Position numbers and translations under genes: made by a program. 64,000 bases of DNA, taken from assembly GCF_026571515.1 (NCBI RefSeq), contig NW_026864254.1, forward strand, positions 310,001 to 374,000, in the 5' to 3' direction. The notes under the pieces were generated by a model. It searched no databases. It saw nothing but the letters and a program-made list of their open reading frames with translations, and was not told the origin of the DNA. This document shows, piece by piece, positions 26,150-35,680 of this stretch. The stretch's first letter is position 1. Each line of letters begins with the position of its first letter. The DNA comes from Ruditapes philippinarum. Taxonomy: Eukaryota.

Positions 26150-29100
26150 ATGGGGATGGGATTGAGACGGGGAGGGCGCGGAAGGCGCGCTGGTCGTCGA
26201 CACCGACGAGTTGGCTTTGGTAGAAGGCGAAATAGGTTTGGCCGTCGGCGTCGGGGTAGAGGTGGAGGCCTTGGTTTACTATTTCTCTGTTGCATGGGTA
26301 AGATTTATGTTAAACTGTTAGATAAAGCCGAAACATGATCATTTAAACGTCGAAATAATTAAAATTACAAGTACAAATGTTGCTGCAGTGCAGCAATTGA
26401 GAAGCTCCGCGCAAAAAAATGCGCTCTTTACAGATACCTTACCAAATTATTCCTACGCACAGGTCATGTTATATTCAGATCAAGTACTATTGTTGATTTT
26501 TTTCCGAATGTTTTGTAAACCATTTTTTGCATAATTATACTTATCTTATGCACTGTCCATAATTAAAAAGAGGGGAAAGATATTTAATATAAAAAATGCT
26601 TTCACTGATGCCTACCTGGTAAGGAAAGTAATTCCATTGAATACAAACAAGACTTACAAGACTTGTAAATGTTATGTTTTTGATTTGATTTTTTTTTTTT
26701 TTTTTTGATTTTTTTTTTCATGACTGTACTGTGTTCTGTTTGTGTCACTACTGTAGTCAGTAACATAAGATGATAAAAATATCAAAGGCTGTTATTTTAT
26801 TATTATTATAATTGTAACAAATATACAAAAGGGACTAATAAAAAGTAACAAAAGGGACTAATATTTTAATATAGTAATATAACATGCATTTTTTCATGTC
26901 AAATTAAAAAAAAATGGTTTCGTTCAATACTGAAAGTAGAACACACTCTGGAATGAAAAAATGGGATGAATTTCAAAAAAAACAAATCCAGGAATTTGTT
27001 TGTTTGTTATACACGCGTTACATGGTGATACAGTATTTATCAATATAATAGAAGACAGTTACCTGGATTTTAGGCAGGTATGAGGAAATTCACTAACATC
27101 ATGTTCGTGCGAGTCAAAGATAAAAAAGCTGTTTGACATTTGTGAAACATATATAAATAAAAACTATTGTTAATTGATTTATTGGGAGATTTATTGGGAG
27201 ATCAATATATATTTTTGTTGAATTGCTTTAAAACCATTCATAAAAACATTACACTTCATGTTTAAACTGCACGTCAAAGTTTCTTTTGTTATCATGATAT
27301 CTATCTATAGCCTATGTATGCTTAATGAGGGTCCATCCGCTGGTACATGTAAGGCCACAAAATGCAGCTTTCCCTGTCGAGTACGGACCCCGGACATGTC
27401 ACCAGTCATACCCTTAAGAGTTAATTTTGAAGCATATAGTGGTATGCATAACAATGAAGCGAATGAAATGTTACCTTATAAACTAAACTTTAATTATTTC
27501 AAAACAACCAATTTATCAACATGTTAATTATTAAACATTTGATTTCATAAATATAAATTAAAGCAGCACGCCTCCAGATTCATCCTAATTTTCATGAAAA
27601 TTTTGAAAATGTATTTAAAGGTAAAATATTGTGAAATGAACAAAGAAAGTACTTGACACATTACAATCGGCACTTAAAATCCACGTCAATTACCAAAAAG
27701 AGGTCAAAATATGCATAAATAGCCCCTACTGCGTTAGTAACGCAGTAGAAATACGGTGTTAAATACTACAAAATACAGTCATTAATTGCACATAAGATAA
27801 TTATTACTTGAATCTTTAATTTGTTCACTTTTCTCAAAGTTTTAGTATGGTTTTTCCAAGTTTAATTTTCTTGAAATATTTTGGGTCATCTGGAGGTATG
27901 CAGCTTTAAGAATAATTATCAAAAGCAAAATTGTTAAAGTCTTATGTCTGAAATCTTCTTTATATTGACAAATTCAATCACTAATAGTATACTTGATATG
28001 CTGTGTGTAAATGAAATTCAAAATGTAACAAATTATAATTTCATGTACTACTAAAAAAGGGAAATAACCTGAGTGTCAAAAATCAGAACATTTATAGCTA
28101 TTTATAGCTTTCGAATTCATGTACAGCAGAACAGCTTTCCGGTTCTCATTCATTAATATGACATGCTGCGACTCACCGAAGGGGAAACCAATATAGAAAT
28201 TGAAAGGAGTTCTTGAATGGGGATTTACTTTTAGCTGTAAATCGAAAGGATTAATTGATCAAATCCGGGGCCATGGACAAAAAAAAATAGTAAACACTAA
28301 TAGCTCCGCGCCTGTGGGCGCGGAGCAATGATAATGACTAGTATCTTTTTTCTTTTCATCATCATTAAAATCATCATAATGAGCATCATCATCATCATCA
28401 TCATCATAATCATCATCATCATCATCATCATTATCATCATCATCATCATCATTATAATCAGCATCATCATCATTATAATCAGCATCATCATCATTATAAT
28501 CAGCATCATCATCATTATAATCAGCATCATCATCATTATCATCATTATCATCATCATTTACCAGTATTATTATTACTTCTACTGCTACTACTGCTACTAC
28601 TACTTCTACCACTACTGCTACTGCTGCTGCTGCTACTGCTACTGCTATTGCTACTTTTACTACTACTGCAGCTATTGCTAAAACTGCTGTTATTGCTACT
28701 GCTACTGCTACTAATATTACTGACTCTGCTGCTGCTACTTATTATTCTTCTACTACTACTACTTCTACTTTGTTTTACCTACTGCTTAAACTGCTTCTAT
28801 TTCTACTGCTCCTACTGCTACTAGCTACTAGTTACTACAACTACGACATGTATATTATCATGAATAATTCTTTATGATAACTTTAGTATAATTATCATTG
28901 TTTTATACATACACATCACAGATTGTATCGTTATCCTTATTGTTTACTGCAGGTAGATCAAGAAAAAATGTCAGTTATGGACAGGACATCCAACACTTAC
29001 AACAACAACAAATGATGATGATACAGGCTATAATGGCACAACAACAGCCTGGCCAACAACAACAAATGTTTGGACAACAACAACAAATGTTTGGACAAAC

Positions 29101-29533
29101 ACAACAACCATTTGGACAACCACAACAAATGTTTGGACAACCACAACCAGTTGGACAACAACAAGAAATGTTTGTTCAACAACAACAACAACAACAACAA
29201 CAACCATTTGGACAACAACAACAACAACAACCATTTGGAGAACAACAGTACGGTGTGACGCCTATTGGTATGCCAGCTGCGCAAGGTTCTCCTCTGGCTT
29301 ACAACGAAGAGCATGTTAAAGAATTGCAATCCGAACAAATGGAACTTCTTAATGAAATTATGAAAAGACAAGCGGAAGAAAAAGATCCAGTAAAACTCCA
29401 GGAGTTATTCAATGAACAAAACATGCTTTTGGCACAAATGAGTCAGTTACAATCAGCCGGTTATGCTTACCCGGAACCTTTGCCGGCGCCCGCCCAGGCA
29501 CAGCCTTCGCAAGAGGCGCCAATGCAGTCTTAA
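26150..29533 (+). CDS. Uncharacterised Arg/Gly-rich, di-cysteine, Gln-rich protein, paralogue A (242 aa)
   Basis: Exon 26150-26297 (MGMGLRRGGRGRR...LLFLCCM, donor G|GTAAGA) joins in frame to 28953-29533 (acceptor tttactgcag; GRSRKNVSYGQDIQHLQQQQ...EAPMQS*), 729 nt. Splice sites and frame are conserved in paralogue B. Confidence 0.8.
27558..27909. mobile_element. TTAA-flanked MITE; related partial copies at ~55207-55470 and ~57057-57290
   Basis: ttaaagcagcacgcctccaga...tctggaggtatgcagctttaa, with a shared internal sequence (aattttcatgaa..., aaatatggtgataaatac). Confidence 0.75.
28355..28845. repeat. Compound (CAT)n / (CTA,CTG)n microsatellite in intron
   Basis: Visible triplet runs with a 21-bp higher-order unit, tataatcagcatcatcatcat. 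Confidence 0.9.
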
Positions 29534-33466: not shown

Positions 33467-35680
33467 ATGGGGCTCGGAGGGATTGGGGGTAAAGGGCGCT
33501 CAGGCGGAGGGTTCGGAGGACGCACAGGCGGACGCACAGGCGGACGAACAGGCGGAGGGTTCGGAGGGCGCGCAGGCGGAGGGTTCGGAGGGAGAACAGG
33601 ACACGGGGGGTTCGGAAGGCGCACAGGACTCGGAGGGCACAAAGGTCGTTCTAACCGAGTTGGCATTGCCGGAGGGGGAACAGGGTTTGGCCGTCGTAGT
33701 CGGGGGAGTGGTGCAAGTCTTTTTTGTTGCATGGGTAAGATTTAAGCTATACTGTTAGATAAAGTATAATCATGATTATAAAAATGGATATCAAATTGAG
33801 CGTCAGTAATGTGATTCTACCCTCTAAAATTTTCTCTAAATTTGACCATTTTTGTATCAGATTTTTTTTTATTCTTTGTTGAGATATTCTTTCCGTTGTT
33901 GGTTCTGGTGTGCCCAAAGTATGCAAACTTATGAAGAAAATATCACTTAACGGATTCAAAATACAATTTTTACTAAATCTTAACACCGAACGATGTTAAT
34001 CTTTCAAACAAACCCTTATTGAAATATTGAGATTTGACACAATATAAGATAAAAGACTTGCTGGCTAAAATTCCAGTCTAGCTTCATATGTGCTGAAGAG
34101 ATCCATATGTGATAAAGAAAATCATCTACAAAACTACGGATCACTTTCATATAAACATTAAATAGGCAATCTAAAGGAACAAGTAAAAATTAGCGGAAAT
34201 TTACATATTTATTTTTACCGCTGCTCAATTTTGAGGCCTACATGGGGTTCACCCCATATGTTGGTGCGATGTAAAACCTCACCAGAAAAAAAATAATGTT
34301 TCTGCTTCCTACAAAACTATGGATCACTTTAACATCAACAATAAATAGCCAATCTAAAGGAAAATTAAACATCAGGGTAAATTCACATCTTTATTTTTAC
34401 CGATGCTCAATTTTGAGATCCATATGGTGTTCCACTCTCGAGACTGTGATGGTGAGACGTAAAACTTCACCAAATAACAAAATAATGCTTCTGCTGCTGC
34501 TGCTGTTGGTTAAACTACTACTAATGTTGTTGTGGTTGTTGCCGAACTGCTGCTACCACTACAATTATTACTACTGCAGATGTCACAAATACTACCTGCT
34601 TCTACTCTAAACTCTAAATTAGTTGTAGAAAGAGCTGCTGCAATACTACAACTGCTACTGCTGCTGCTGTTACTGCTGATCTACTGCTGCTGCTAATGCA
34701 CTGCTACTGCTGCTGCTACTGCTATTGCTGCTACATCTGTGCTACTGCTATTGCTGCTATAACTACTATTACCGCCGCCGCCACCACCATCACCGCCACT
34801 ACTACTAGTAGTAGTACCGCAACCACGACTCACTACTACTTCTACTTCTGCTGCTACTGCTGCTGTTGCTGCAACTGCTACTAACTGCTGTTTACCACTA
34901 CTAAATGAATTTTATCATTACTTCTATAAGCTCATATTTAATAAATCGTATCTGTAATATAATTATTATCAATATCGCATAGGTCAATATGTCTTTCTAC
35001 AAGTGAATATCACATCATATTCAATTGCTCACTAGTCAATAACTACATGTATATAGTGTTTTAGACTACTACATATCACATATATTATATTATCCCTATG
35101 GTTCACTGCAGGTGGAGAAGATGCCACATATGGAAAGGACGTCAAACATTTACAACAACAACAAACGATGATGTTACAGATAATACAGGGAATGCAGCCA
35201 TATCTACAACAGCTTGGTCAACAACAGCAACAACAAATGATTGGACAGCAACAACAGTCAGTTGGACAACAAGCAATGTTCGGACAACCACAGCCTGTTG
35301 GACAACAGCAATATATGTTTGGACAACCACAACAACCAGTTGGACAACAACAAGCAATTTTTGGACAACAACAACAACAACAAGTTGGCCAACAAGAGAA
35401 CGGTACGACGTTGATAGGTATGCAAGAGTACATCAAAAGGAATGTTGAAGAATTTCAATCAGAACAGATGGAACTTCTTAATGAAATTAAGGAACGGCAA
35501 ACTGAAGAAAAAGATCCAAAAGTACTACAAGAGTTATGCAATGAACAAAACATGCTTTTGGCACAAATGAGTCAGCTACAAACAGCCGGTTATGCTTACC
35601 CGGAACCTTTGCCGGCATCTACCCAGGCACCGACTCGGCAAGAGGCGCCGACATGGCCGATGCAGTCTTGCTCTACGTAA
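33467..35680 (+). CDS. Uncharacterised Gly/Arg-rich, di-cysteine, Gln-rich protein, paralogue B (278 aa)
   Basis: Exon 33467-33734 (MGLGGIGGKGRSGGGFGGRTGG...SLFCCM) joins in frame to 35112-35680 (GGEDATYGKDVKHLQQQQ...MQSCST*), 837 nt. The C-terminal ~60 aa is highly similar to paralogue A. Confidence 0.8.
34485..34905. repeat. Degenerate (CTA/CTG)n microsatellite in intron of paralogue B
   Basis: Triplet runs in the position equivalent to 28560-28845 in paralogue A. Confidence 0.85.

What the first reader, a model, noticed from the sequence alone, without database searches (positions are those of the whole stretch)
26150..35680. Tandem pair of unrecognised proteins: RG/GR-rich head, di-cysteine, prion-like FGQ repeats, conserved helical tail
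Seen: both genes encode a Met-Gly start and a basic Gly/Arg tract ending in LF(L)CCMG exactly at a phase-1 intron. A Gln-rich region of (M/P)FGQ(P/Q)QQ repeats follows, then a strongly conserved acidic amphipathic segment (QSEQMELLNEI..RQ.EEKDP..LQEL.NEQNMLLAQMSQLQ.AGYAYPEPLPA). There is no signal peptide. The ORF track shows the halves as unrelated ORFs. Established: RGG tracts bind RNA and are Arg-methylated, Q/G/F-rich domains drive phase separation, and a basic stretch plus hydrophobic CC is a common S-palmitoylation context. Inference: a lineage-specific, possibly membrane-tethered condensate or RNA-binding scaffold. I recognise no family.
Basis: partly seen in the sequence, partly recalled or inferred. 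Interest (0 to 1): 0.7.

Follow-up and report, generated by a model that had tools for sequence, protein, structure and literature searches.

The report
Clam lipid-anchored three-helix protein family
Two neighbouring clam genes belong to an unnamed bivalve protein family with an arginine-rich head, a conserved cysteine pair and a predicted three-helix bundle, which likely hangs on the inner face of cell membranes as a small adaptor; the eye-catching glutamine repeats are an optional loop.

Summary
The two genes are real. Both are open across a phase-1 GT-AG intron (242 and 278 aa). One transcript contig spans gene B's junction, and the tail is under purifying selection (dN/dS 0.21). They are not a lone pair: the genome has a third full paralogue and a partial copy, and 27 non-redundant relatives were found. 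The named ones are from Mercenaria, Mya, Mactra and Ruditapes (Imparidentia bivalves). Conserved features: an Arg-rich head, a short hydrophobic stretch with a Cys cluster (11 of 11 full heads), the intron right after it, and a predicted three-helix bundle ending in G[YF]xY. Not conserved: FGQ repeats (0 of 27 relatives, and a B allele lacks all three) and RGG motifs (0 in B and C). The repeats are a loop inside the bundle. Some relatives carry PPxY and PSAP motifs far above shuffle; A and B do not. No Pfam family or solved relative; the fold is generic. Best reading: an S-acylated peripheral membrane adaptor that works like CYSPD or LITAF without belonging to either. Function is untested.

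The parts
24193..24274 (+). Conserved non-coding block, probable 5'-UTR exon end of gene A with GTAAGT donor at 24230 (inferred)
   Evidence: 79.5% identical to 31801-31878 upstream of B; not confirmed by reads
26150..26297 (+). Gene A coding exon 1: Arg/Gly head (18 R, 0 K, 0 D/E), short hydrophobic stretch, Cys47-Cys48
26298..28952 (+). Gene A phase-1 GT-AG intron (2655 nt)
   Evidence: junction supported by homologue P0003, not by reads
28953..29533 (+). Gene A coding exon 2: helix 1 (about 28979-29044), disordered Q/FGQ loop, helices 2-3 (about 29291-29455), GYAYP tail, stop
   Evidence: AlphaFold2 model H9-30, H113-141, H145-167 with pLDDT 84-95 and loop under 50; bundle-type alignment over residues 1-171
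29327..29488 (+). Conserved tail of A under purifying selection
   Evidence: dN/dS 0.21 vs B; family alignment
31801..31878 (+). Conserved non-coding block, probable 5'-UTR exon end of gene B with donor at 31835 (inferred)
   Evidence: read depth there at background
33467..33734 (+). Gene B coding exon 1: Gly/Arg head with 24-bp repeats (13 R, 41 G, no RGG), Cys87-Cys88
33735..35111 (+). Gene B phase-1 GT-AG intron (1377 nt)
   Evidence: spanned by one X1 contig
35112..35680 (+). Gene B coding exon 2: helix 1, Q/xGQ loop, helices 2-3, GYAYP tail, stop
35245..35370 (+). 126-nt (42-codon) in-frame segment of the loop, holding all three FGQ of B; absent in an allele seen in two runs
   Evidence: joint 35244-35371 in one X1 contig and 2 raw reads of X23, non-GT-AG ends; frame check

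Best explanation
Genes A and B are spliced tandem paralogues of a bivalve protein family that is likely anchored to the cytosolic face of a membrane by S-acylated cysteines plus a polybasic head, and that likely presents a predicted three-helix bundle as a protein-binding adaptor. Shown: gene structure, family, conserved head, Cys cluster, intron position, selection on the tail, dispensable FGQ loop. Predicted: the bundle, with helices 1 and 2 resembling an internal repeat. Inferred: Arg-driven attraction to acidic lipids, then DHHC-type palmitoylation of the Cys pair, then partner binding through the acidic bundle and its G[YF]xY..P tail. The PPxY/PSAP motifs of some relatives point to NEDD4/ESCRT-type membrane trafficking as the likely pathway; A and B lack them and would act through the bundle alone.
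For: Hydrophobic stretch plus Cys cluster in 11 of 11 full heads (CC in 10): 10 and one in locus L025. In A, P0003, P0004 and P0043 these are the only cysteines. Heads carry 13-24 Arg and 0-3 acidic residues. No TM or signal segment. The phase-1 intron directly after the Cys cluster is shared by A, B, paralogue C and L025. Two AlphaFold2 models give three helices with pLDDT about 84-95, and both align to three-helix bundles across all three helices. PPxY occurs 10 times in 7 of 29 sequences vs 0.74 in shuffles (max 5 in 2000), 8 of them as PPxYxxV, with reversed YxPP 0; P[ST]AP occurs 6 times in 4 sequences vs 0.1. Precedent: palmitoylation together with a polybasic domain recruits soluble proteins to membranes, and yeast CYSPD proteins are anchored this way, one with a PPxY motif (PMC10840359). 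SIMPLE/LITAF carries predicted PSAP and PPSY sites (PMC3656027).
Against: No acylation, localisation or partner is shown, and palmitoylation has no consensus (PMC10840359). A and B have no PPxY or PSAP. The motif counts are not independent (P0019 and P0043 are close, and 3 of 6 PSAP are in one protein), and shuffling is a weak control for such common motifs. The strong Arg-over-Lys bias and His-rich heads (P0026, P0043) fit nucleic-acid binding as well as lipid binding. One relative (P0010, a genome-predicted model) lacks a recognisable helix 1. The fold is generic (best Z 11.9, no standout). The models rest on only 21-23 sequences (pTM 0.54-0.59). B was at background depth in the two raw RNA runs.
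Confidence: 0.5

Rival explanations
1. RNA-binding or condensate scaffold: the Arg/Gly head binds RNA, the Q/G/aromatic tracts drive assembly, and the Cys pair may tether this to a membrane.
For: Heads are Arg- not Lys-rich. Q/G/aromatic repeats of different sequence recur in A, B, P0003, P0008, P0019, P0041 and P0043. The loop is predicted disordered.
Against: RGG is 0 in B, C and P0043. FGQ is in 0 of 27 relatives. P0004, P0005, P0006, P0011, P0014 and P0039 have no long repeat tract. A B allele lacks all FGQ. Selection falls on the bundle.
Confidence: 0.2
2. Protamine-like or sperm-chromatin precursor: the Arg(His)/Cys head condenses DNA and the acidic bundle is a built-in chaperone that is cut off.
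For: Head +15 to +18 and remainder -8 to -18. R/H/C composition of some heads. The resemblance to protamine precursors is recalled; one search was seen as a listing only.
Against: Arg is only 21 of 242 residues in A. The conserved hydrophobic stretch before the cysteines and the PPxY/PSAP motifs are unexplained. No tissue data.
Confidence: 0.08
3. A highly diverged member of a known bundle family (GAT, syntaxin Habc, BAG) whose homology is no longer detectable.
For: GAT domains of GGA1 and Tom1, Habc and BAG domains are among the structural matches at Z 9-10.8, rmsd 2-3 A.
Against: They tie with unrelated bundles (MRS2, spectrin, STAT, designed proteins) at 4-20% identity. No Pfam family is shared by more than 1 of 21 members at E<=0.1. 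Helices 1 and 2 resemble each other (profile score 21.9 vs 12.1 reversed, shuffle 7.6 +/- 3.0), which hints at origin by internal duplication.
Confidence: 0.12

Closest known systems
CYSTM / CYSPD proteins (yeast Cpp1-3, human CYSTM1; PMC10840359)
   Same: Small proteins with a hydrophobic Cys cluster, low-complexity polar regions and sometimes a PPxY motif; anchored by palmitate rather than a TM helix (shown for CYSPD, inferred here).
   Different: CYSPD has 5-6 Cys at the C terminus of 60-150 aa proteins. Here 2-3 Cys follow an Arg-rich N-terminal head and precede a folded bundle (163-298 aa). No Pfam match.
LITAF/SIMPLE-type endosomal adaptors (PMC3656027)
   Same: PPxY and PSAP motifs in Pro-rich disordered parts of a small membrane-associated protein (in relatives such as P0026 and P0013).
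   Different: No Cys-rich LITAF domain; A and B lack both motifs; different folded domain.
GAT domain adaptors (GGA1, Tom1), syntaxin Habc, BAG
   Same: Antiparallel three-helix bundle of about 85-100 residues (Z 9-10.8).
   Different: No sequence link, no VHS or other partner domains, and matches no better than unrelated bundles.
Database records of the family itself (XP_045168847.2, XP_060601441.1, XP_052810359.1, WAR05265.1, KAL4222231.1)
   Same: True homologues.
   Different: Labelled uncharacterized or hypothetical, or given what look like automatic names ('bromodomain-containing DDB_G0280777-like', 'Bindin') that no Pfam result supports.

Membership tests
CYSTM/CYSPD | C-terminal module with 5-6 conserved Cys | tested here: not met
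   2-3 Cys in the N-terminal third; no CYSTM Pfam match among the families shown for 21 members; definition from PMC10840359
CYSTM/CYSPD | Membrane binding through palmitoylation | not testable with these tools
   Needs acyl-biotin exchange; context conserved
LITAF/SIMPLE | PPxY and PSAP motifs | tested here: inconclusive
   PPxY in 7 of 29 and PSAP in 4 of 29 sequences, none in A or B
LITAF/SIMPLE | Cys-rich LITAF domain | tested here: not met
   At most 4 Cys in any of 10 full-length members; no Pfam match shown
GAT domain | Three-helix GAT fold | tested here: inconclusive
   1naf Z 10.2-10.5, rmsd 2.2-2.9, aligned 84-102, tied with unrelated bundles
GAT domain | GAT sequence profile | tested here: not met
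   Not among the 25 of 27 weak families shown for 21 members at E<=0.1, each hit by one member only; no GAT chain in the PDB profile search to E 10
GAT domain | Ubiquitin binding | not testable with these tools
   Needs a binding assay
RGG-box RNA-binding proteins | Clustered RGG/RG repeats (definition recalled) | tested here: inconclusive
   RGG 2 in A, 0 in B, C and P0043, 0-4 over 10 heads; RG 0-6
Prion-like domain proteins | Conserved Q/N-rich low-complexity domain | tested here: not met
   Present in A and B, absent in several relatives and partly deleted in a B allele; PLAAC was not run
Protamine/SNBP | Arg-dominated whole protein (definition recalled) | tested here: not met
   Arg is 21 of 242 residues in A; only the head is basic
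Protamine/SNBP | Testis-specific expression | not testable with these tools
   Runs carry no tissue labels

The most novel reading that the evidence does not exclude
The family is a bivalve-born minimal vesicle-loading protein. An Arg-rich head binds RNA, acylated cysteines hold it on the membrane, a self-duplicated helix bundle scaffolds it, and PPxY/PSAP late-domain-like motifs recruit NEDD4/ESCRT to bud RNA-carrying extracellular vesicles. A and B would be a derived venerid pair that swapped the motifs for a length-polymorphic FGQ loop.
Probability: 0.06. Interest if true: 0.8.

Novelty: new variant of a known kind. Interest (0 to 1): 0.38.

Why it matters
It defines an undescribed, conserved small-protein family in clams and their relatives, with a clear and cheaply testable anatomy, and it corrects two misleading database names. 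If the membrane-adaptor reading holds, it is an independent invention of the acylated PY-motif adaptor design (CYSPD, LITAF) around a new bundle, and a case where a repeat loop expands and contracts inside a folded domain within one species. It does not by itself open a long-standing question, so interest is moderate.

Tried and rejected
Pfam on the four exons and on 21 members: only weak, sub-threshold, single-member hits (PQQ, Nucleoporin_FG), rejected as compositional. PDB sequence profiles: best E 0.087, nothing real. Foldseek PDB: no match at E<=0.001. ESM Atlas held neither exon 2 of A nor P0001. For P0039 it gave no feature hit and TM<=0.40 on a poor model. Complex prediction of the bundle with ubiquitin: no verdict, score 0.01, alignment not used; it is not evidence either way. 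Run search for gene A: no RNA holder listed (19 of 24 rows hold half or more of the words, 11 studies, none on record as RNA). An apparent MGC dual-acylation start in P0012 was dropped because the RefSeq model of the same locus (P0026) has the usual basic head; Met-CC starts in P0019 and P0040 were likewise treated as truncations after P0043. The word-indexed protein searches are insensitive here (one search missed P0003), so absence outside Imparidentia is not shown. The tree of 23 tails (an earlier 15-row tree, lost 10 rows to a faulty anchor) is mostly unresolved and was used only for the A+B+P0001+Mercenaria clade. Scan notes: nothing relevant. Literature: no paper holds six accession or locus terms; searches listed nothing on this family (listings only); no supplements were read, and gene tables in supplements could mention these loci.
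Full report
1. Observation. A has an in-frame stop two codons before its ATG, and no protein has a hydrophobic segment of signal or TM strength (best 19-residue mean 0.52). Conserved non-coding blocks upstream of both genes, one with a GTAAGT donor, suggest a 5'-UTR exon and show that the whole locus was duplicated (inferred). The 54-codon tail has pS 0.28, pN 0.07 and dN/dS 0.21 (p=0.003). 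Helix 1 gives 0.63 on 19 codons (not significant).

2. Transcripts. Four runs were laid on gene B. One contig of X1 (RNA by guess, depth 7.6) joins exon 1 to exon 2 at the predicted junction; the other three runs show no such joint. The same contig, about 98% identical to B, skips 126 nt of the repeat tract with non-splice ends, and two raw reads of X23 show the same skip. The skip is in frame and removes all three FGQ, so it is most simply a shorter allele. Exon depth in the raw RNA runs X23 and X24 (4-5% of each run read) was 0-3, no higher than intronic background, so B is at most weakly expressed there.

3. Family. The own genome gives 4 matches in each of three searches (lower bounds): A, B, C (G000:C7443) and D (G000:C157). 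C has the same two-exon plan with a basic head and CCC before a phase-1 intron, but no FGQ repeats. Its conceptual product equals the RefSeq protein XP_060601441.1 of Ruditapes philippinarum letter for letter, which identifies the species. D has exon 2 only (90% to C, dN/dS about 1.2); no exon 1 was found in C157 30000-65061. A profile search of 1.84 billion representatives gave 23 hits at E<=0.001, all with the family tail. A second profile search added 4. Named members are from Mercenaria mercenaria, Mya arenaria, Mactra antiquata and Ruditapes, of orders Venerida and Myida within Imparidentia. The rest are unnamed, so the true range is open. For motif counts I used A, B and 27 relatives, one per cluster: P0002 was replaced by P0039, P0012 by P0026, and near-duplicates were left out. 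Many are fragments. A, B, P0001 and the Mercenaria protein form a supported clade (95/93).

4. What is conserved. All 10 full-length heads aligned, plus one read from metagenome locus L025, are Arg-rich. The 10 aligned heads have 13-24 R, 0-3 K and 0-3 D/E. All 11 end in a short hydrophobic stretch with a Cys cluster, CC in 10 of 11. In four proteins these are the only cysteines. L025 has its intron at the same place and phase. Full-length ORFs on about 1-kb Logan contigs (P0004, P0043) show head and tail joined in relatives. The tail has invariant E, L, M, G and P and near-invariant Q, Q, L, D and Y over 19 sequences. FGQ occurs in 0 of 27 relatives, and RGG 0-4 times per head. The region between helix 1 and helix 2 ranges from a 4-residue turn in the P0004 model to about 80 residues in A. 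Other Q/G/aromatic repeats do recur in several members, in the loop or after the tail. PPxY occurs 10 times in 7 of 29 sequences (shuffle mean 0.74) and P[ST]AP 6 times in 4 (0.1), but not in A or B.

5. Structure. AlphaFold2 on P0004 gives helices 40-76, 81-108 and 112-134 (pLDDT 83-95 in most helical blocks, pTM 0.59). On exon 2 of A it gives helices 9-30, 113-141 and 145-167 around a disordered loop (pTM 0.54). Both models align to antiparallel three-helix bundles over all three helices, so in the model helix 1 docks on the hairpin. Best Z is 11.6-11.9 with no standout; GAT, Habc, BAG, spectrin and designed bundles tie. Helices 1 and 2 share an LQxxQxxLL-like pattern (score 21.9; reversed control 12.1; 0 of 2000 shuffles). 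The helix 3 comparisons are little above the reversed control.

6. Mechanism. I commit, at 0.5, to an S-acylated peripheral membrane adaptor. Shown: anatomy, conservation, selection. Predicted: the bundle. Inferred: acylation, membrane binding, partner binding and a link to NEDD4/ESCRT trafficking. The precedent for polybasic-plus-palmitate anchoring and for CYSPD proteins is from PMC10840359 (abstract, introduction and 12 passages read). The LITAF motifs are from PMC3656027 (4 passages). Rivals are an RNA or condensate scaffold (0.2), a remote known bundle family (0.12) and a protamine-like precursor (0.08).

7. Relation to known families. It works like CYSPD or LITAF-type adaptors by inference, but fails their defining features, so it is not filed under them. 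No Pfam family, solved relative or Atlas neighbour was found. Members are in databases as uncharacterized models. Searches of the paper library (listings only) found no description; subscription papers and supplements were not seen.

8. Verdict. This is an undescribed bivalve family and a new variant of a known design, of moderate interest (0.38). The bolder vesicle-loading reading has about 6% probability.

Noticed in passing
G000:C157:29997-30398 (L004/L010): Paralogue D: an open exon 2, 90% identical to C, dN/dS about 1.2, with no exon 1 found upstream on the contig; it shares its downstream neighbour gene with C. Probably a truncated segmental duplicate or a rearranged haplotype.
   Followed up: partly
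window 30166-30482 and 30660-30764: A 22/44-bp satellite between genes A and B with a shorter copy in opposite orientation.
   Followed up: no
window 22051-23096 (+), 38704-41805 (-), 49267-50487 (-): Ordinary neighbours: cytosolic sulfotransferase (PF00685), MFS transporter (PF07690) and galactose-3-O-sulfotransferase (PF06990).
   Followed up: yes
window 6819-14961 (-): Several exons that look like Ig-type domains by eye; no Pfam hit at E<=0.01 for the four tested.
   Followed up: partly
window 32352-32387 and 35003-35042: Short dispersed-repeat fragments that attract very high read depth with loose ends in all four runs, i.e. pieces of abundant repeats rather than expression of this locus.
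   Followed up: no
L007:1517-1786 (+) and L008: A gene downstream of paralogues C and D that appears to encode a signal peptide, a Cys-containing extracellular part and a Gly/Pro linker before a TM start; no Pfam hit on its first exon.
   Followed up: partly
window 29489-29533 and 29408-29485 vs 35537-35614: The last 26 codons of the conserved tail are 75 of 78 nt identical between A and B while the first 28 codons have pS 0.46, hinting at partial gene conversion.
   Followed up: no
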